Source: a virus. From it: a stretch of DNA of 64,000 bases. Position 1 is the stretch's first letter; every line of letters starts with the position of its first letter. Position numbers and translations under genes: made by a program. The notes beneath the pieces are model-generated. The model did not search any database, was not told where the DNA came from, and saw only the letters and a program-made list of their open reading frames with translations. Of the stretch, positions 50,384-63,433 are shown piece after piece. The DNA lies in IMG/VR virus record IMGVR_UViG_3300008114_000040, positions 25,568 through 89,567 of that record; one strand, written 5' to 3'.

Positions 50384-51475
50384 ATGAATGTCAAAATAAC
50401 TTATCACGACACCGTTTCAAAAGAAGAACAAAAATTAATTGAGGAGTTTATATCTTTTTTAAAAATAAAATATCCATTGGAAAAAGATGTATTTATTGAT
50501 TTTTTGAAAAAGAGAACAAGTGAAATGTCAACTGGTGGTAGAACCTCAACACATCATCTAAAAATTTTGGTTAAAGATAGACTAAACCGAGATGTTCTTA
50601 GATCCTTAGTTCACGAATGGGTGCACGAATATCAAAGGACTGTATTGGGAAGAAAAAAAGGTCCGGAAATTGGTGGAAAAAACGAGGACGAAGCAAATGC
50701 TATTGCTGGACAAATGATGAAAAAGTTTGAAAAAACACATAAAGAAGAACTACCAAAAATTTATAAAAGTTTTTCCGAACAAATAACAAAACTTGAGGAA
50801 TCATTAAATATTGAATCATTTAATAACTCACAAATCATATCTGAAATAAAACAAGTCAGTGTTGAAAAATTACCGTATGAATATGATTCACTTGAAAGTT
50901 TTATTGACCCAGAAACAATGGAAACACATTATACAAAACACTACAAGGGTTATGTTGAAAAACTAAATGTGGAACTTGAAAAAATAAAAGGGAAGGATTT
51001 GGATTTGGAGGAAATTGTAACAAATATATCAAAATTTAATACAACGATTAAAAATAATGGTGGTGGTGCGTTCAATCACGCTCTTTTTTGGAAAATGTTA
51101 TCACCCAAAAAACAAACAATTAAAGATCCAATCAAAACAAAAATTGAAAAAACTTTTGGTTCGTTTGAAAAATTTAAAGATACGTTTGAAGAAGCCGCAA
51201 AGTCCAGATTTGGTTCCGGTTGGGTTTGGTTGATACTAACCGATAAAAATAGATTAAAGATTGTAACGACCGCAAATCAAGATAACCCACTAATGAATTC
51301 AGAAAAAGAAAGGGGTTATCCGTTGTTGGGACTGGATGTTTGGGAACATGCATATTATTTAAAATACAAAAATAAAAGGGACAAATATGTGTCAAACTTT
51401 TGGAAAGTTGTAAATTGGGGTTTTGTAAATGACCAATACACAACCAGACTAGATATTCTAAAATTCAAACAATAA
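50384..51475 (+). CDS. sod: Fe/Mn superoxide dismutase fused to an N-terminal HExxH metallopeptidase-like domain
   Basis: C-terminal ~200 aa: LPYEYDSLE, HYTKHYKGY, FNHALFW, FGSGWVWL, NQD, DVWEHAYY; N-terminal LVHEWVHE...EDEANA. Confidence 0.88.
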   Translation: MNVKITYHDTVSKEEQKLIEEFISFLKIKYPLEKDVFIDFLKKRTSEMSTGGRTSTHHLKILVKDRLNRDVLRSLVHEWVHEYQRTVLGRKKGPEIGGKNEDEANAIAGQMMKKFEKTHKEELPKIYKSFSEQITKLEESLNIESFNNSQIISEIKQVSVEKLPYEYDSLESFIDPETMETHYTKHYKGYVEKLNVELEKIKGKDLDLEEIVTNISKFNTTIKNNGGGAFNHALFWKMLSPKKQTIKDPIKTKIEKTFGSFEKFKDTFEEAAKSRFGSGWVWLILTDKNRLKIVTTANQDNPLMNSEKERGYPLLGLDVWEHAYYLKYKNKRDKYVSNFWKVVNWGFVNDQYTTRLDILKFKQ

Positions 51476-57524: not shown

Positions 57525-58115
57525 TCATTTAATAAAATACCAGCTTGAGAATAATTCTGGAGTAAAATTAATTTTCACATCATATTTTTTGATTATTTCA
57601 TCAATTGCTGTATTAACTCCGAAATTACCCAAAAAGTTATCACCAGAATAAATTGCCTTATCTTTGTTGTTGTCAAGAAATTTTCCGTCGTACCAATGAA
57701 TCATCATATAATCGTGTCCGGCAATTAATCCACCTTTTTTAACTTTTGGAAACCAGTTATTAAAATCGGTCATAAAACCATCATATGAATGGTTGGCATC
57801 CAAATATACAAAATCCAAACTATCATCTGAAAATAACTTGCAAGCCACTTCTGAAGGCATTCGCATCATATGTGCCCTATCGGCAAATTTTGATATGTTT
57901 TTTATACAGTCAACAATAACACCCGAATCTTCATCGTTGTTATTTGTGTCAATATAATCGTCAATTTTTCTCCACACATCAACCATAAACAACGTACCAT
58001 CCTTCCATCTGGACAAAAGTGCTTTTGAAAATTCACCTCTTAACGTTCCAACCTCAACACCTTTTTTGTAGTTGTTTCTTACCAAAATATCTGAAATTAT
58101 ATCTTCCCTTCTCAT
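57525..58115 (-). CDS. Class I SAM-dependent methyltransferase (Methyltransf_24-like, often glycan-associated)
   Basis: GVEVGTLRGEFS, VDVW, LDFVYLDANHSY, KVKKGGLIAGHDY. Confidence 0.85.
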   Translation of the reverse strand: MRREDIISDILVRNNYKKGVEVGTLRGEFSKALLSRWKDGTLFMVDVWRKIDDYIDTNNNDEDSGVIVDCIKNISKFADRAHMMRMPSEVACKLFSDDSLDFVYLDANHSYDGFMTDFNNWFPKVKKGGLIAGHDYMMIHWYDGKFLDNNKDKAIYSGDNFLGNFGVNTAIDEIIKKYDVKINFTPELFSSWYFIK

Positions 58116-58852
58116 AATTTTAATTTTAAAACTTTAGAATAATATTCAAACCAATAACGTTCTTGCCACAATGTACCTTCTTCCAAATACACTGGTGGTT
58201 TGTTCTGCCAAGGTTTTTTAACAACATAATGTAATATCTTAACATATTTTGGCAAACCCAAATTTTTAAAAATTCCTTTATTGTAAATTTTCAAAAAGTT
58301 ATAGGAAATCGGAATATCGGTTATAACATCCAAAAAATAGTTATTGATTATGTCCTGATCCAAATGTTCGGTAATTCCGTACAATTCGGTTAATTTAATT
58401 AAGTCTGTTGTTATTTTTGTATTTAAATATTTTTTATTTATAACCATAACACCGGTATTGTGTTGATCAATAAATAATTCTCTAACCGCACCAAAATCGT
58501 CCTTGAAATCAATTAAATAATCAATATTACCCAAAATAAGGGTGTCAGAATCTAAAAATATAATTTTATCAAAATCCACCATTGAAAAAAGTTCAAACTT
58601 GGTATAATCACCAAAGGCCATTCGTTCTTTTTTCATCTCATTTATTTTCTCATATTTTGATTCATCATATCTTTTTAATGAGATATTATCATAAATTTTT
58701 CTTGACGTGATTAAATCTTCGTCCGTCAAATCATTTGATATAATAACAAAAGGAAAATTTTCATTCTCAATTCTTGGGTTATTTTCAATAAGTGATTTTA
58801 ACATCACTTCAAACCCAACTAAATAATTTTTATCGCAATTTGTAACAAACAT
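58112..58852 (-). CDS. Glycosyltransferase family 8
   Basis: YL.GF.VML.SL, FLDSDTL (DxD), NTGVMVI, DQDIIN, YN, ILHY...KPW. Confidence 0.88.
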   Translation of the reverse strand: MFVTNCDKNYLVGFEVMLKSLIENNPRIENENFPFVIISNDLTDEDLITSRKIYDNISLKRYDESKYEKINEMKKERMAFGDYTKFELFSMVDFDKIIFLDSDTLILGNIDYLIDFKDDFGAVRELFIDQHNTGVMVINKKYLNTKITTDLIKLTELYGITEHLDQDIINNYFLDVITDIPISYNFLKIYNKGIFKNLGLPKYVKILHYVVKKPWQNKPPVYLEEGTLWQERYWFEYYSKVLKLKL

Positions 58853-58943: not shown

Positions 58944-59765
58944 ATGGTAAAAAAGATATTTTTTCAAAGTTCATTACCCAGGGCCGGGTCAACATTATTT
59001 CAAAATGTTATTTCACAAAATCCAGAATTTTATGCGACTCCAACTTCTGGAGTACTGGAATTAATTTACGCATCAAGAGGAAACTATACCAATTCACCTG
59101 AGTTCAAAGCTCAAGATGGTGAATTAATGAAAAAAGGATTTTTGTCCTTTTGTAAAAACGGTGTTGAAGGGTTTTTTAATGGTATCACTGATAAACCTTA
59201 TGTGGTTGATAAAAGTAGAGGTTGGGGAGTCCATTATAATTGGTTAAATTCATTTTATCCGAACGCAAAAGTCGTATGTATGGTAAGAGACCTAAGAGGC
59301 ATTTTTGCTTCAATGGAGAAGAACTATAGAAAAAATATGCACCTTGATAGTGGCATTGTTAATCATTCACAAATGAAGGGAACCACAACAGAAAAAAGGA
59401 TTGATATTTGGTCAAGTTCCCAACCAGTTGGACTTGCAATTGAAAGGTTGTACCAAATTTTAAAGGAGGGTAACGGAAGAAATATGTTATTTATTCGTTT
59501 TGAGGACTTTTGTTTGGACCCAAAAACACAAATGGAAAGAGTATATAACTATTTTGAATTACCTTATTATGAAGGACATGATTTTGATAACGTAGCTCAA
59601 GTAACAAAAGAAGATGATTCAGTATATGGTATTTATGGTGATCACGTAATAAAACAAAAAATTGAACCACAAAAATTGGATTATAAAGAAGTTTTGGGTA
59701 TCAATGTATGTAGTAATATAAAAAGTAAATATAAGTGGTTCTACGATGAATTCAGATACAACTAA
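58944..59765 (+). CDS. PAPS-dependent sulfotransferase
   Basis: 5'-PSB loop SLPRAGSTL, DKSR.W, 3'-PB motif VRDLRGIFAS, IRFEDF..DP. Confidence 0.88.
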   Translation: MVKKIFFQSSLPRAGSTLFQNVISQNPEFYATPTSGVLELIYASRGNYTNSPEFKAQDGELMKKGFLSFCKNGVEGFFNGITDKPYVVDKSRGWGVHYNWLNSFYPNAKVVCMVRDLRGIFASMEKNYRKNMHLDSGIVNHSQMKGTTTEKRIDIWSSSQPVGLAIERLYQILKEGNGRNMLFIRFEDFCLDPKTQMERVYNYFELPYYEGHDFDNVAQVTKEDDSVYGIYGDHVIKQKIEPQKLDYKEVLGINVCSNIKSKYKWFYDEFRYN

Positions 59766-60795
59766 AAACAATCTAACAAAACACGAACAAGTTGTTACAA
59801 AACTTGAAAGACAAAATCTTTTAAAACAAAAGTCACCAGTGATTTGGTTAACTGGCTTATCGGGGTCAGGAAAATCAACCATCGCAAATGAACTAGCAAG
59901 GCAATTATTTGAAATGGGTAAATTATCGTACATTTTGGATGGTGATAATATTAGACTTGGACTTAATAAAGATTTAGGATTTTCTGATGATGACAGAAAA
60001 GAGAACATTAGAAGGATTGCCGAAACTGCAAAACTTTTTTCAGACGCCGGTGTTATCACAATAACGGCATTTATTTCACCATTTATTAATGATAGGGAGT
60101 TAGCTAAAGAAATAATTGGTGAAAGTGATTTTTTTGAAATATTTGTTGATAGTTCATTGGAATTATGTGAAACAAGGGACCCAAAAGGGTTGTACAAAAA
60201 AGCAAGAACGGGTGAAATTAAAATGTTTACCGGGATTGACTCACCTTATGAAAAACCAATAAATCCTTTTATGGTGTTAAAAACCGAAAATACAACACCG
60301 GAAGACTTGGCGAAAAAAATAATAAAAAAAATAACATTTTATTTTTTGTGGGAAAAAATCAATCACGGGGGTGAACCAACAAATAATAAAGATAAAAAAT
60401 ATGCAATTTTTATAGGCCGTTTTCAACCTCCGCATTTGGGTCATTTTCAGTTAATTGAACAAAAGTTAAACGAAGGGGTCCCCGCACTTATTATGGTAAG
60501 AGACATTGAACCGGACGAAAAAAATCCATTTACAACTGAACAAACAATCAATATGGTTGAAAAATATCACCATTCAAAAGGACACGACGTAAAAGTTATG
60601 TCAATTCCGGATATTGAATCAGTTAACTTTGGTAGGGGTGTAGGTTATGAAATTAATGAGTTTATTCCACCAAAAGATTTGGCATTTATTTCTGCAACAA
60701 AAATTAGAGAATCAATCAAAAATAGTGATGATACCTGGAGAAATATGGTTGATGAGTCAATACAAAATGATGTTATAGAATATTTAAAAGTATGA
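59746..60795 (+). CDS. cysC: Adenylyl-sulfate (APS) kinase fused to a C-terminal HxGH nucleotidyltransferase domain
   Basis: WLTGLSGSGKST, LDGDNIR, RRIAE, FISP, RDPKGLYKKAR.GEI..FTGIDSPYE.P; then IGRFQPPHLGH...NPF...ISATKIR. Confidence 0.9.
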   Translation: MNSDTTKNNLTKHEQVVTKLERQNLLKQKSPVIWLTGLSGSGKSTIANELARQLFEMGKLSYILDGDNIRLGLNKDLGFSDDDRKENIRRIAETAKLFSDAGVITITAFISPFINDRELAKEIIGESDFFEIFVDSSLELCETRDPKGLYKKARTGEIKMFTGIDSPYEKPINPFMVLKTENTTPEDLAKKIIKKITFYFLWEKINHGGEPTNNKDKKYAIFIGRFQPPHLGHFQLIEQKLNEGVPALIMVRDIEPDEKNPFTTEQTINMVEKYHHSKGHDVKVMSIPDIESVNFGRGVGYEINEFIPPKDLAFISATKIRESIKNSDDTWRNMVDESIQNDVIEYLKV

Positions 60796-61223
60796 GTCAA
60801 GAAAAAACATACCAAATAAGATACAACACACATTCAAAAGATGATAATGATAGTTGGAGGTTAATATGTGATGGTGAAGAAACGTTGGTTTCTGACATTA
60901 TTATAACATCAAAAACAAGAACAACAAAAGATTATATTGAAGATTTGGGAAACAAATATCACATTACTTGTGAAGGGGTTTTGGAGGTTAAAGATAATGT
61001 TGCTCACATTAAAACAAAAAGACCGGATAATCCGAATATTCGTCACATCTTAAAAACGATAACCTATAGATTAACAGCAACTTGTGTAACCGTATTAACC
61101 GCATATTTTTTGGGTATGTCCTTGGAAGTGTCATCATTAATCGGAATTGGAGAATTAACAATTAAACCTTTTATTTATTTTTTACACGAAAAATTATGGT
61201 TTAAATTCGGAAATTTTAAATGA
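60792..61223 (+). CDS. DUF2061-like membrane protein with extra N-terminal soluble domain
   Basis: C-terminal RHILKTITYR...T...IG..E...K..IYFLHEKLW matches DUF2061. Confidence 0.7.
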   Translation: MSQEKTYQIRYNTHSKDDNDSWRLICDGEETLVSDIIITSKTRTTKDYIEDLGNKYHITCEGVLEVKDNVAHIKTKRPDNPNIRHILKTITYRLTATCVTVLTAYFLGMSLEVSSLIGIGELTIKPFIYFLHEKLWFKFGNFK

Positions 61224-62241
61224 TTTTCTCCAAAACTTTTATAACTTCCTCAGTTGAGGTGTAATCTTCAATTTCATAATCAACCGATTCCAAATTGTTT
61301 TTTCCGATTCTAATCATATTTGTTTGGAATTCGTGATCAAGTGGTGTACAATCACTTATCATAATGACCGGTTTACCACAACCCCAAGCAACCCAAGATA
61401 GACCAGATGATACACCCATAAAAAACTCAGAATAAAACAAATCAACCATTCGTTCTTTTAATGGATAGTCGCCGGTTAAATTGATTACATTTTCTAATGT
61501 TGTCGATTCTTTTGATATAACAACCACTTTAATACCTTTTGAGTTTAAATAATTAACGACGTTTTGCCATCCGTTCGGTTCCTTCCATTCCTTTTTTGGT
61601 GCACTACCTTTTTCAGAAATACAAACATATCTACCAGATATTCTCCGATGATTATGTTCAATTGATTTCATTAAGTCCGGAACTATTTCCGTATATTCTA
61701 GACCCAATATATCACAAGCGGTTTGTTGAAGTGGTATTTTTTTTGAATCTTTTGGTGAGTAAACACCGTCATTGTCGTGAGCACCAATATAATATTGAGC
61801 GTACACATTATGGGCTTGTGTATTTGGTTCTAAAAATAAAATGTCCGGATATACGTGTTTAAAAATATCATTAAAATACGCCGAACATAAAACATGACAA
61901 TTGTGTTTTTTTCTAAACTCATCAACATATGGAATCCAAGCCAAGTTATCACCCAAGGCCCTACCATCAATTTTTATAAAAACATATTTGTTTGTAAGGT
62001 CAAACTTATCGGTATGGATTAGTTCGTTGTCCTTATAAATTTTAATTAACCAGTCACAATACCATTGTCTATAACCATATACTTTTTCGTTTGAATAAAA
62101 GGTTTGTGAATGAACAATTTCTGAAGTTTGGTTATCAATGAATTCAATAAAATATTCATTTTGCTCATTTTCAATGATTACGCAAGCCGGTGCGTTTCCT
62201 TGAAGTGGTAAAGTTGTTTTATAATTAATCTTGATTTGCAT
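61216..62241 (-). CDS. Aah/TibC-like (autotransporter heptosyltransferase-type) GT-B glycosyltransferase; start likely 62241
   Basis: ALGDNLAWIPYVDEFRKKHNC, PLQQTACDILGL, YVCIS...KEW...GW..VV.YL..G, FFMGVSSGLSWVAW..GKPVIMIS. Confidence 0.75.
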   Translation of the reverse strand: MQIKINYKTTLPLQGNAPACVIIENEQNEYFIEFIDNQTSEIVHSQTFYSNEKVYGYRQWYCDWLIKIYKDNELIHTDKFDLTNKYVFIKIDGRALGDNLAWIPYVDEFRKKHNCHVLCSAYFNDIFKHVYPDILFLEPNTQAHNVYAQYYIGAHDNDGVYSPKDSKKIPLQQTACDILGLEYTEIVPDLMKSIEHNHRRISGRYVCISEKGSAPKKEWKEPNGWQNVVNYLNSKGIKVVVISKESTTLENVINLTGDYPLKERMVDLFYSEFFMGVSSGLSWVAWGCGKPVIMISDCTPLDHEFQTNMIRIGKNNLESVDYEIEDYTSTEEVIKVLEKII

Positions 62242-63433
62242 TACTATTTTTATACAGGTTTGTTTCTGGGTTATATTCCAAATAAGTATTTGGTATGTTA
62301 TTAAATAAGTTTTCAATTAATAGATCATACATACTTATCAGTTCTTCATTTTCGGCAAAGTATCTATTTAATACCTGGTCGTTTCTTTTGTCATATTCCT
62401 CAATATTTTCATCATGATGTTTTAAAATATAATTTAACATCTTTCCACCTTCTTTTGTATTGGAACCTTCGTAATAATAACCCAAATCCTTACAAAGTGG
62501 TGCATTGTGTAATATTGGATAACCCATATAAACTGCGTCCAGATATAAATAATTGAGGGGGTTTAACAATTGGTGTGATACAATTACATCCGCGTGTTGA
62601 GATAAGATATAGGGTGTTTGATATCTACTTTCGGCAGTTATCATTTTGTCCTTACCCAAATCAAGTTTTTTAATAAGTTGAACAAAGTTTTGTTTTTTGT
62701 TTAACTTATCACCTCCAAAAATATATACATTCTCAATATTTTCTTTCCCTTCTGATCTATAACTTTCTTCACAAACAAATATTGGAATCAAACAAAATTT
62801 AACCACATTAATGTTTGGTTCCATTATTGCGATGTTCTTTTTTTCCTTTCCGATTTGGTATCTAAAATCTTTTTTATAATGACCGGATTTGTAACCTTTC
62901 TCAATGTCAAGTATGGAATTTTTTATAAACTTATAGTGCCATATAAATGGAACAGCTAAAGCGTTTGTTCTATGGAGTGTTGAAAAATAACCTTGACAGG
63001 TCTCGTGTTGTTGGGGGACATACCAAACTTCATCGTATAAATCCTCATTTTCATATTCAGTGGTTTTAAAACCTTCGTGGAATAAAAACTTCTCAACACC
63101 TAATATGTAGTTATTTCCACACTTATAAGAAATTACTTTTTTGTTTTTATCCTTTTTAAATTCCTCAACTAAGTCCCATTTCATTTGTGAACCCATCGCA
63201 ACTAACAAATCCATTTCAGAATATGCGTCGTCAAAATACCTTAGTTTAACACCATCAAAATGTTTGGGGAGTGTTTCTGGTACGTCAATTTTATTTACAT
63301 TCAATAAATAAACATCATAATTTTTAGTTGAATGTGTCAACATATGGATAAAATAAAATATGTTGAGTTTTAACCCATTTGTCCAAATGGATTCATTTAC
63401 ATCTTTGAGAGATATGCTTACACCTATTTTCAT
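62225..63433 (-). CDS. DUF2827-like protein (putative glycosyltransferase)
   Basis: SIWTNG..N, CGNNY, VPFIW, IMEPNINVVK..LIP, VSHQ..NPLNYLY.D.VY.GYP.LHN. Confidence 0.7.
   Translation of the reverse strand: MKIGVSISLKDVNESIWTNGLKLNIFYFIHMLTHSTKNYDVYLLNVNKIDVPETLPKHFDGVKLRYFDDAYSEMDLLVAMGSQMKWDLVEEFKKDKNKKVISYKCGNNYILGVEKFLFHEGFKTTEYENEDLYDEVWYVPQQHETCQGYFSTLHRTNALAVPFIWHYKFIKNSILDIEKGYKSGHYKKDFRYQIGKEKKNIAIMEPNINVVKFCLIPIFVCEESYRSEGKENIENVYIFGGDKLNKKQNFVQLIKKLDLGKDKMITAESRYQTPYILSQHADVIVSHQLLNPLNYLYLDAVYMGYPILHNAPLCKDLGYYYEGSNTKEGGKMLNYILKHHDENIEEYDKRNDQVLNRYFAENEELISMYDLLIENLFNNIPNTYLEYNPETNLYKNSNANQD

What the first reader, a model, noticed from the sequence alone, without database searches (positions are those of the whole stretch)
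59746..60795. APS kinase fused to a minimal HxGH nucleotidyltransferase: candidate new type of PAPS synthase
Seen: a complete CysC domain (~aa 1-195) followed in frame by a ~140 aa domain with GRFQPPHLGH and ISATKIR. Known: Sat-type ATP sulfurylases belong to the HxGH nucleotidyltransferase superfamily, with an HxxH motif and an IS(G/A)TxxR motif, but are ~400 aa; eukaryotic PAPS synthases have the order kinase then sulfurylase. No sat or cysDN gene is in the window. Inference: the small NMNAT/cytidylyltransferase-sized domain is a stripped-down ATP sulfurylase, making a single-chain PAPS synthase for the adjacent sulfotransferase.
Basis: partly seen in the sequence, partly recalled or inferred. 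Interest (0 to 1): 0.85.

Follow-up and report, generated by a model that had tools for sequence, protein, structure and literature searches.

The report
Phage PAPS synthase with mini sulfurylase
An uncultured marine phage encodes one protein that joins a normal APS kinase to a tiny NMNAT-like enzyme, and comparative genomics marks that enzyme as a probable undescribed third kind of ATP sulfurylase; nobody has assayed it.

Summary
ORF 59746-60795 (+) encodes 349 aa. Residues 1-197 are a canonical APS kinase (CysC). Residues ~215-349 are a small HxGH/ISxTxxR nucleotidyltransferase (NT).

The NT is not a cut-down Sat. Its nearest relatives are archaeal/NadM-type NMN adenylyltransferases with about 25 central residues missing, and profile comparison with Sat finds only the shared tail motif.

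Its function as an ATP sulfurylase is nevertheless well supported by context:
- It is fused to CysC in both domain orders.
- It lies directly after cysC (then cysQ and sulfotransferases) in marine Flavobacteriales.
- It lies directly after sulfite reductase and cysH in Nitrospirota-labelled MAGs.
- In a 107-genome Dadabacteria-phylum sample, 72 genomes carry NT and none of these has Sat or CysD. All 30 Sat or CysD carriers lack NT.
- Closed Dadabacteria chromosomes have cysH, sulfite reductase and cysC (sulfate permease seen in the one examined), and canonical CoaD, NadD and RibF were confirmed in one of them, but no Sat, CysD or CysN.

The phage operon (sulfotransferase, CysC-NT, DUF2061) therefore probably makes and uses its own PAPS. 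No literature on the family was found. The same scan has flagged this family on many other phage contigs. There is no biochemical evidence.

The parts
58944..59765 (+). Sulfotransferase (273 aa), the likely consumer of PAPS. Its end overlaps the start of the fusion gene by 20 nt.
   Evidence: PF13469 Sulfotransfer_3 at E 1.2e-17 and PF00685 at E 1e-9. A sulfotransferase is detectable next to the CysC/NT pair in 25 of the 80 best viral loci.
59746..60795 (+). CysC-NT fusion gene (349 aa), the candidate single-chain PAPS synthase.
   Evidence: The same architecture is seen in many independent metagenome proteins. Among the 150 best 50%-identity cluster representatives, 29 are CysC-NT and 10 are NT-CysC.
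59746..60336 (+). APS kinase (CysC) domain, aa 1-197, with P-loop GLSGSGKST, LDGDNIR and DRKENIRR.
   Evidence: TIGR00455 255.9 bits (cut-off 138.7) and NF003013 258.6 bits (cut-off 163). Best solved relative is Arabidopsis APS kinase 3uie, E 5e-64.
60337..60387 (+). Linker, aa 198-214.
   Evidence: Low pLDDT at the N-terminal 20 residues of the modelled piece. This region is not conserved in alignment A1.
60388..60792 (+). Small HIGH-type nucleotidyltransferase (NT) domain, aa 215-349, the candidate ATP sulfurylase. Shared superfamily motifs: GRFQPPHLGH (aa 224-233) and ISATKIR (aa 315-321). Family-specific near-invariant residues: R252 in 'VRD' and R297 in 'GRGVGY'.
   Evidence: PF01467 36.6 bits. 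Conservation from 41 sequences. AF2 model pLDDT 91. Closest solved relatives are NMNAT and PPAT.
60792..61223 (+). DUF2061 protein (143 aa): a conserved N-terminal beta-rich domain of about 80 aa plus a C-terminal two-helix hairpin, predicted by Pfam to be membrane-embedded. Its start overlaps the fusion's stop (ATGA).
   Evidence: PF09834 at E 2.8e-13. A DUF2061 gene is adjacent to NT in 46 of 80 viral loci. NT-DUF2061 fusions exist (P0004, P0097, P0161). The AF2 model is poor (pLDDT 63) but shows helices at 81-106 and 111-139.
57525..58852 (-). Methyltransf_24 methyltransferase (57525-58115) and GT8 glycosyltransferase (58112-58852), the divergently oriented part of the same glycan-modification block.
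   Evidence: PF13578 at E 7e-16 and PF01501 at E 8.7e-21. Methyltransf_24-NT fusions exist elsewhere (P0249).
61216..63433 (-). GT9-like glycosyltransferase (61216-62316) and DUF2827 protein (62225-63433), the likely makers of the glycan that is sulfated.
   Evidence: PF01075 at E 8.9e-5 and PF10933 at E 4e-102. A GT9-like gene recurs next to the module in 13 of 80 viral loci.

Best explanation
The gene encodes a bifunctional PAPS synthase of a new build.

- Step 1 (inferred from context and motifs): the C-terminal 135-aa NT domain, derived from archaeal/NadM-type NMN adenylyltransferases, acts as an ATP sulfurylase. It binds MgATP through the superfamily HxGH (H230, H233) and ISxTxxR (S316, T318, R321) motifs. 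It holds sulfate in a pocket reshaped by loss of about 25 residues after the 'PDIE' strand, using two family-specific near-invariant arginines (R252, R297). It transfers AMP to sulfate, giving APS and PPi.
- Step 2 (domain identity shown, activity inferred): the fused N-terminal CysC domain immediately phosphorylates APS to PAPS. This pulls the unfavourable first step.
- Step 3 (inferred): the overlapping upstream sulfotransferase uses PAPS to sulfate a glycan built by the neighbouring GT8, GT9-like and DUF2827 enzymes, probably on a phage or host surface structure.
- DUF2061 (inferred): this small protein (predicted membrane hairpin) probably tethers or assists the NT enzyme.

The phage probably acquired the module from marine Bacteroidota.
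For: Domain identities.

Gene fusion evidence:
- Among the 150 best cluster representatives of the NT family, 29 are CysC-NT and 10 are NT-CysC, that is, both orders.

Conserved neighbourhoods in three unrelated settings:
- Marine Flavobacteriales: cysC-NT in 25 loci, often followed by cysQ and 2-4 sulfotransferases.
- Nitrospirota-labelled MAGs: Rrf2 regulator, sulfite reductase, cysH, then NT.
- Phages: CysC adjacent in 67 of 80 loci, DUF2061 in 46 of 80, a sulfotransferase in 25 of 80.

Phyletic complementarity:
- In 107 genomes of the Dadabacteria phylum, 72 have NT.
- 18 have Sat and 12 have CysD, and all 30 of these are NT-negative.
- 70 of the 72 NT-positive genomes have CysC.
- In 151 Flavobacteriales genomes, 6 have NT and none of them has CysD, against 104 of the 145 NT-negative genomes.

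A real pathway gap:
- Closed Dadabacteria chromosomes have CysH, CysC and sulfite reductase, and in the one examined (G001) CysH sits next to a sulfate permease. They have no Sat, CysD or CysN.
- In G001, CoaD, NadD and RibF are all present above their cut-offs, and four further genomes show a similar set of other PF01467 hits. NT is therefore a spare adenylyltransferase.

Structure and motifs:
- The AF2 model is confident (pLDDT 91) and has the nucleotidyltransferase fold.
- The catalytic motifs are near-invariant, and two arginines absent from NMNAT are gained.
Against: - No biochemical data exist.
- The nearest homologues are NMN adenylyltransferases. Similarity to Sat is limited to superfamily motifs.
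- Two genomes carry both NT and a Sat-CysC fusion, so complementarity is not absolute.
- The complementarity is partly clade-structured. The number of independent evolutionary events is small, roughly three bacterial lineages plus phages.
- A few NT fusions are to other partners: cupin/mannose-6-P isomerase-like, HAD and methyltransferases.
- Cultured Xylella/Xanthomonas/Stenotrophomonas phages carry a distant kinase-NT fusion in a DNA-metabolism region with no sulfotransferase nearby.
- The sulfate-binding role of R252 and R297 is inference only. No coordinates were available to inspect.
Confidence: 0.72

Rival explanations
1. The NT domain is an ordinary nucleotidyltransferase for another substrate: NMN or NaMN (phage NAD synthesis), glycerol-3-phosphate, or a sugar phosphate for the neighbouring glycosyltransferases. 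On this reading it is fused to CysC only because both serve the same glycan-decoration block. APS would come from the host's Sat or CysDN.
For: - The best family matches are NMNAT models (NF002243 44.6 bits, TIGR01527 36.6 bits) and NMNAT/PPAT structures.
- Its size is similar to TagD-type cytidylyltransferases (2b7l appears at E 0.011).
- One relative is fused to a cupin/mannose-6-P isomerase-like domain, and others to methyltransferases.
- Glycosyltransferases flank the module.
Against: - The NMNAT model scores are far below their cut-offs (127 and 181.2).
- The segment that separates the two NMNAT-matching blocks (1f9a residues 77-108) is reduced to about 7 residues.
- NT-positive genomes examined already have NadD, CoaD and RibF (confirmed above cut-off in G001).
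- This reading does not explain the sulfite reductase-cysH-NT operon.
- It does not explain why NT-positive genomes with cysH and cysC uniformly lack Sat and CysDN.
Confidence: 0.1
2. The NT domain does work in adenylyl-sulfate chemistry but is not a classical forward ATP sulfurylase. It might activate another oxyanion (selenate, molybdate, thiosulfate). It might run mainly in reverse (APS + PPi to ATP + sulfate). It might use another nucleotide. Or it might be an APS/PAPS-binding accessory that regulates or channels for CysC.
For: - The tight association with CysC, CysH and DUF2061 shows a link to APS/PAPS but does not fix the reaction.
- Two genomes have both NT and Sat-CysC, which hints at non-redundant roles.
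- Salvo-like phages keep the fusion without any sulfotransferase nearby.
Against: - The catalytic HxGH and ISxTxxR motifs are near-invariant, which argues against a purely regulatory domain.
- Genomes with a sulfate permease, cysH, sulfite reductase and cysC but no Sat or CysDN need a forward sulfurylase.
Confidence: 0.14
3. The fusion is an assembly or frameshift artefact that joins two separate genes.
For: In the two closest viral loci with flanking sequence (L085, L086), and in 79 of the 80 viral loci overall, CysC and NT are separate, overlapping ORFs.
Against: - A 99%-identical 349-aa protein was seen on other contigs.
- More than 100 proteins of 300-367 aa with both domains come from JGI, ENA, NCBI and Logan assemblies.
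- The reverse-order fusion also exists.
- The frame is uninterrupted across the junction.
Confidence: 0.02

Closest known systems
Bifunctional PAPS synthases (animal PAPSS1/2, e.g. PDB 1x6v) and bacterial Sat-CysC fusions (Aquifex 2gks)
   Same: One chain combines an APS kinase with an adenylyl-transferring domain of the HIGH superfamily. The domain order here, kinase then transferase, matches PAPSS. The CysC domain is homologous to the PAPSS1 kinase domain (E 1e-54).
   Different: The second domain is about 135 aa instead of about 400. It has no PUA-like domain and does not match PF01747 (no hit at E<=1). It descends from NMNAT-like enzymes, not from Sat.
Sat-type homo-oligomeric ATP sulfurylase (PF01747; EC 2.7.7.4)
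   Same: Same proposed reaction and same superfamily chemistry: an HxxH motif and an ISxTxxR motif that bind ATP phosphates. hhalign aligns the ISxTxxR tail. Two distant NT relatives brush the PF01747 threshold (26.0 and 23.8 bits).
   Different: There is no family-level homology. Sat's QxRNPxHxxH and VGRDHAG sulfate loops are not reproduced. Instead the motifs are GRxQPxHxGH, VRD and GRGVGY. The domain is about a third of Sat's size.
CysDN heterodimeric, GTP-coupled ATP sulfurylase
   Same: It fills the same pathway slot, and its distribution is complementary.
   Different: Unrelated fold (CysD is a PAPS-reductase-like ATP pyrophosphatase) and no GTPase partner. NT appears to rely on coupling to CysC instead: 70 of 72 NT-positive genomes have CysC, whereas the CysD-positive Dadabacteria-phylum genomes lack it.
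Archaeal/NadM-type NMN adenylyltransferase (TIGR01527, NF002243; PDB 1f9a, 1ej2, 2qjo)
   Same: Closest relatives by sequence and fold. They share GRxQPxHxGH, NPFT, a DIE strand, SxTxxR and the C-terminal W-containing helix.
   Different: About 25 residues between the DIE strand and the 'GYE' strand are missing. From memory of the NMNAT-NAD structures, this segment carries the nicotinamide-binding residues; this was not checked here. Scores are far below the family cut-offs. Two arginines are gained. The genomic context is sulfur metabolism, not NAD metabolism.
CoA synthase (PPAT-DPCK fusion, COASY)
   Same: Analogous logic: a small HIGH-type adenylyltransferase is fused to a P-loop kinase that phosphorylates the 3'-OH of the adenylylated product. 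PPAT is among the top structural matches.
   Different: The kinase here is a bona fide CysC above equivalog cut-offs, not a dephospho-CoA kinase. CoaD is separately present in the NT-positive genome checked (G001).

Membership tests
APS kinase CysC (PF01583 / TIGR00455) | Profile score above the curated cut-off across the whole domain | tested here: met
   PF01583 223.8 bits (cut-off 21.1). TIGR00455 255.9 bits (cut-off 138.7), covering profile positions 2-183 of 184.
APS kinase CysC (PF01583 / TIGR00455) | P-loop and APS-binding motifs (GxxGxGKS/T, LDGDNxR, DRxENIRR, ISP) | tested here: met
   GLSGSGKST at 37-45, LDGDNIR at 64-70, DRKENIRR at 83-90 and FISPF at 109-113 in the translation. The motif definitions are from general knowledge.
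Sat-type ATP sulfurylase (PF01747) | Match to the ATP-sulfurylase profile | tested here: not met
   No PF01747 hit for P0001 at E<=1. hhalign of the NT family against Sat gives 52% probability over 38 columns, the tail only. No Sat appears among the PDB profile hits or the listed Foldseek hits.
Sat-type ATP sulfurylase (PF01747) | QxRNPxHxxH and (V)GRDHAG sulfate/phosphate loops, and an N-terminal PUA-like domain | tested here: not met
   The Sat alignment A4 consensus has FQTRNPIHRAH and VGRDHAG. NT has GRFQPPHLGH, VRD and GRGVGY in non-equivalent spacing. There is no room for a PUA-like domain in 135 aa.
Sat-type ATP sulfurylase (PF01747) | Catalyses ATP + sulfate to APS + PPi | not testable with these tools
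   Supported only by genomic context.
Archaeal/NadM NMN adenylyltransferase (TIGR01527, NF002243) | Score above the equivalog/subfamily cut-off | tested here: not met
   TIGR01527 36.6 bits against 181.2. NF002243 44.6 bits against 127.
Archaeal/NadM NMN adenylyltransferase (TIGR01527, NF002243) | Complete core including the segment between the DIE strand and the following strand (1f9a residues ~77-108) | tested here: not met
   The profile alignment splits into two blocks. 1f9a residues 77-108 correspond to only about 7 profile positions.
HIGH-signature nucleotidyltransferase superfamily (PF01467 CTP_transf_like) | HxGH and ISxTxxR motifs, Rossmann-like fold, and profile score above cut-off | tested here: met
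   PF01467 36.6 bits (cut-off 21). The motifs are near-invariant. Foldseek TM is about 0.68 to PPAT and NMNAT.
Bifunctional PAPS synthase (PAPSS-type) | APS kinase domain fused to a Sat-family sulfurylase domain | tested here: not met
   The kinase domain is present. The second domain is not Sat-family. It works like a PAPS synthase only by inference.

The most novel reading that the evidence does not exclude
The NT family is a third, evolutionarily independent class of ATP sulfurylase: a roughly 130-aa NMNAT-derived enzyme that depends on coupling to APS kinase. It would be the sole sulfate-activating enzyme of Dadabacteria and of a group of marine Flavobacteriales, and it is spread by hundreds of phages as part of a portable PAPS-and-sulfation cassette. 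The fused form in this window would then be a new type of single-chain PAPS synthase.
Probability: 0.7. Interest if true: 0.9.

Novelty: new variant of a known kind. Interest (0 to 1): 0.8.

Why it matters
Sulfate activation is a textbook step thought to be carried out by only two enzyme types, Sat and CysDN.

- A third type of about 130 residues would close an apparent pathway hole in whole lineages. As things stand, their genomes would be misread as unable to activate sulfate.
- It would change how sulfur-cycle genes are counted in metagenomes.
- It would show that phages carry complete sulfation toolkits rather than depending on host APS.
- It would provide a very small enzyme for PAPS regeneration in biocatalysis, or for ATP detection from APS and PPi as in pyrosequencing chemistry.
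- It is also a clean example of a new substrate specificity evolving by deletion of a substrate-binding segment.

Tried and rejected
I used genome contigs and viral-contig scans instead.
- The search for related loci with the 41-sequence alignment failed for lack of a conserved stretch. A 9-sequence alignment worked.
- The AF2 model of the DUF2061 protein was too poor (pLDDT 63) for a fold search, so its N-terminal domain stays unassigned.
- Literature searches found no description of the family. Terms tried: DUF2061; APS kinase + cytidylyltransferase-like; Dadabacteria + sulfate assimilation; ATP sulfurylase + NMN adenylyltransferase; adenylylsulfate kinase + fusion + phage; NMNAT Trp87. The fusion survey PMC4921024 lists only CysN-CysC.
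- Rejected: 'cut-down Sat' ancestry.
- Rejected: NT as the organism's NadD, CoaD or RibF.
- Rejected: the antisense ORF 59619-60197 (-) as a gene. It lies wholly inside the CysC coding region and nothing supports it.
- The SAR11 link mentioned in earlier scan notes was not tested here.
- No model coordinates were available, so the proposed sulfate pocket could not be inspected.
Full report
**What is there**

The window is part of an 89.6-kb IMG/VR viral contig, CheckV about 28% complete. It belongs to a large tailed phage. A B-family DNA polymerase, a roughly 1070-aa sheath-like protein, an SNF2 helicase and fibre genes are visible in the ORF list.

ORF 59746-60795 (+) is open for 349 codons.
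- Residues 1-197 are a canonical adenylyl-sulfate kinase. PF01583 matches at E 1.3e-66. TIGR00455 scores 255.9 bits against a cut-off of 138.7. The best solved relative is plant APS kinase 3uie at E 5e-64. The P-loop, LDGDNIR and DRKENIRR motifs are intact.
- After a linker of about 17 residues comes a domain of about 135 residues that matches PF01467 (36.6 bits, cut-off 21). It carries GRFQPPHLGH (aa 224-233) and ISATKIR (aa 315-321).

The gene is translationally coupled on both sides. A sulfotransferase (PF13469, E 1.2e-17) overlaps its start by 20 nt, and a DUF2061 protein (predicted by Pfam to be membrane-embedded) overlaps its stop by 4 nt. A methyltransferase, a GT8, a GT9-like glycosyltransferase and a DUF2827 protein flank this trio.

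The fusion is not an assembly artefact. A 99%-identical 349-aa protein and more than 100 proteins of 300-367 aa with both domains exist in independent assemblies.

**What the small domain is related to**

A 41-sequence family alignment (A1) shows these near-invariant residues, in the numbering of the 349-aa protein:
- G224, R225, P228, H230, H233
- R252, P261
- P288, D289
- G296, R297, G300
- S316, T318, I320, R321

Searches with this family gave the following:
- A profile search of all PDB sequences puts archaeal NMN adenylyltransferases first (1f9a at E 3e-16, 1ej2 and mutants at about 1e-13). NadM and PPAT follow. No ATP sulfurylase is among the 76 matches.
- The alignment to 1f9a falls into two blocks. 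NMNAT residues 77-108 correspond to only about 7 family positions, a net deletion of about 25 residues just after the conserved 'DIE' strand.
- The AlphaFold model is confident (pLDDT 91, pTM 0.82). Foldseek returns PPAT and archaeal NMNAT (TM about 0.68) and no Sat among the listed hits.
- I built a Sat catalytic-domain alignment from genomes found here (A4). Profile-profile comparison with A1 gives only 52% probability over 38 columns around ISxTxxR.
- The NMNAT models themselves are far below cut-off: TIGR01527 scores 36.6 against 181.2, and NF002243 scores 44.6 against 127.

The domain is therefore a member of the HIGH nucleotidyltransferase superfamily. It is derived from the NMNAT branch. 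It belongs to neither the NMNAT family nor the Sat family.

Relative to NMNAT it has lost a central segment. As far as I recall from the NMNAT-NAD structures, that segment holds the nicotinamide-binding residues. This is from memory and was not verified here. The domain has also gained two invariant arginines, in 'VRD' and 'GRGVGY'.

**Why it is probably an ATP sulfurylase**

*1. Fusions.* Among the 150 best 50%-identity cluster representatives found with the domain alone (1133 hits at E<=1e-3), the architectures are:
- 86 short stand-alone proteins
- 29 CysC-NT fusions
- 10 NT-CysC fusions
- 2 NT-DUF2061 fusions
- 23 with other extensions

Fusion to the same partner in both orders is a strong sign of consecutive steps.

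*2. Operons in three unrelated cellular settings.* A scan of GTDB species genomes gave 209 loci.
- In marine Flavobacteriales SAGs and MAGs, NT lies directly behind cysC in 25 loci. In many of these it is followed by cysQ (PAP phosphatase), a flippase and 2-4 sulfotransferases. This is the slot where cysDN or sat normally sits.
- In four Nitrospirota-labelled MAGs the order is Rrf2 regulator, sulfite reductase, cysH, NT. This is an assimilatory sulfate-reduction operon.
- In Dadabacteria the gene stands alone.

*3. Phages.* More than 413 viral contigs encode a relative. In the best 80, CysC is adjacent in 67, DUF2061 in 46 and a sulfotransferase in 25.

*4. Complementarity.* Two genome samples were searched.

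| Sample | NT-positive | Sat or CysD among NT-positive | Sat or CysD among NT-negative |
|---|---|---|---|
| Dadabacteria phylum, 107 genomes (>=85% complete) | 72 | 0 Sat, 0 CysD | 18 Sat, 12 CysD (of 35) |
| Flavobacteriales order, 151 genomes | 6 | 0 CysD | 104 CysD (of 145) |

- In the Dadabacteria-phylum sample, 70 of the 72 NT-positive genomes have CysC, whereas the CysD group has none.
- For the Flavobacteriales sample, a hypergeometric calculation of my own gives p of about 7e-4, ignoring phylogeny.

*5. A real gap.*
- Sixteen chromosome-level Dadabacteria assemblies all lack Sat, and all carry CysC and a CysH-type reductase.
- The G001 reductase scores 274 bits on NF002537 and sits next to a sulfate permease.
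- Five of these genomes were checked further. All have sulfite reductase, and none has CysN above cut-off; the only hits are EF-Tu-like.
- In G001, CoaD (170 bits), NadD (130.7 bits) and RibF (205.7 bits) are all above their cut-offs; four further genomes show a similar set of other PF01467 hits that I did not identify individually.

NT is thus a fourth adenylyltransferase with no assigned job, in genomes that need APS and have no known way of making it.

**Mechanism proposed**

The domain identities and the genomic pattern are shown. The chemistry is inferred.
- NT binds MgATP with HxGH and ISxTxxR, as its relatives do.
- It holds sulfate with R252 and R297 in the space left by the deletion.
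- It forms APS and PPi.

Because this reaction is strongly unfavourable (established biochemistry of ATP sulfurylase), the enzyme appears to depend on immediate removal of APS by CysC. This fits the fusion, the overlapping genes and the near-obligate co-occurrence with CysC. The CysDN-bearing genomes of the same phylum do without CysC.

In this phage the PAPS would feed the overlapping sulfotransferase. The acceptor is most likely a glycan made by the flanking GT8, GT9-like and DUF2827 genes, beside fibre genes.

DUF2061 ends in a two-helix hairpin and occurs fused to NT. I infer a tethering or assisting role. The binding test could not be run.

**Origin**

In a quick maximum-likelihood tree of 161 NT domains, the window groups with two viral contigs (L085, L086) and a clade of marine Bacteroidota. 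Support is SH-aLRT 91, which is not decisive. Most phage NTs form a separate, purely viral clade. The best cellular identity is 72-74%. A marine Flavobacteriales host or donor is plausible but not shown.

In L085 and L086, CysC and NT are separate overlapping ORFs. The fusion seen here is therefore a derived state within this phage group, although it is common in metagenomes overall.

**Caveats**

- Nothing has been assayed.
- The complementarity is partly clade-structured, so the number of independent events is small.
- Two genomes have both NT and a Sat-CysC fusion.
- Rare fusions to cupin, HAD or methyltransferase domains exist.
- Cultured Xylella, Xanthomonas and Stenotrophomonas phages carry a 25%-identical kinase-NT fusion that keeps the NT motifs. 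One example is Salvo gp32, annotated 'kinase'. It lies among DNA-metabolism genes with no sulfotransferase nearby. That branch may do something else.

**Prior knowledge**

Six full-text searches found no paper describing this family or a CysC-NMNAT-like fusion. Earlier notes of this same scan reached the same reading on many other phage contigs; 218 notes hold the search words. I treated them as leads only. The adjacency, the fusions and the absence of Sat and CysDN were all re-derived here on independent data. Their SAR11 claim was not tested.

**Verdict**

- The most likely reading (about 0.7) is a new kind of single-chain PAPS synthase, whose sulfurylase half belongs to an undescribed third class of ATP sulfurylase.

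Noticed in passing
window 60792-61223 (+); L085:7384-7821, L086:6443-6880, L109:6387-6827 and others: Phage DUF2061 proteins share a well-conserved N-terminal domain of about 80 aa (invariant W22, R23, H57, C60 and others in alignment A3), in front of the predicted membrane hairpin. No Pfam family matches it, and the AF2 model is poor (pLDDT 63).
   Followed up: partly
L176:2522-3265 (Xylella phage Salvo gp32, annotated 'kinase'); also hits H6-H16: Cultured Xylella, Xanthomonas and Stenotrophomonas phages (Salvo, Sano, Bacata, DLP_6 and others) encode a 248-aa fusion of a truncated CysC-like kinase and an NT-family domain. It is 25% identical to the window protein and keeps the IGRYQPWHAGH, YGRDVGY and IRATDIR motifs. 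It lies among MazG and topoisomerase genes with no sulfotransferase nearby. This is a possible cultured test system, or a branch with a different function.
   Followed up: partly
L011, L014, L016, L017 (Nitrospirota-labelled MAGs): Their NT genes nest inside the Flavobacteriales clade of the tree (SH-aLRT 98), although they sit in a sulfite reductase-cysH operon. These genomes also keep a Sat-CysC fusion of about 585 aa. This points to horizontal transfer (or mis-binning) and possibly to two sulfurylases in one cell.
   Followed up: partly
P0124, P0154, P0178 (374-378 aa): A group of NT-family proteins has an N-terminal extension of about 240 aa with no Pfam match and no detectable CysC similarity.
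   Followed up: no
P0205 (316 aa), P0168 (242 aa): Two distant NT relatives touch the Pfam ATP-sulfurylase model (26.0 and 23.8 bits; cut-off 24.3) over the HxxH or tail region. This is a weak sequence bridge between the NT family and Sat.
   Followed up: no
window 50384-51475 (+): An ORF joins an HExxH-containing N-terminal part to a Fe/Mn superoxide dismutase-like C-terminal part.
   Followed up: no
window 59619-60197 (-): A 192-codon antisense ORF (TTG start) lies entirely inside the CysC coding region. Nothing supports it as a gene.
   Followed up: no
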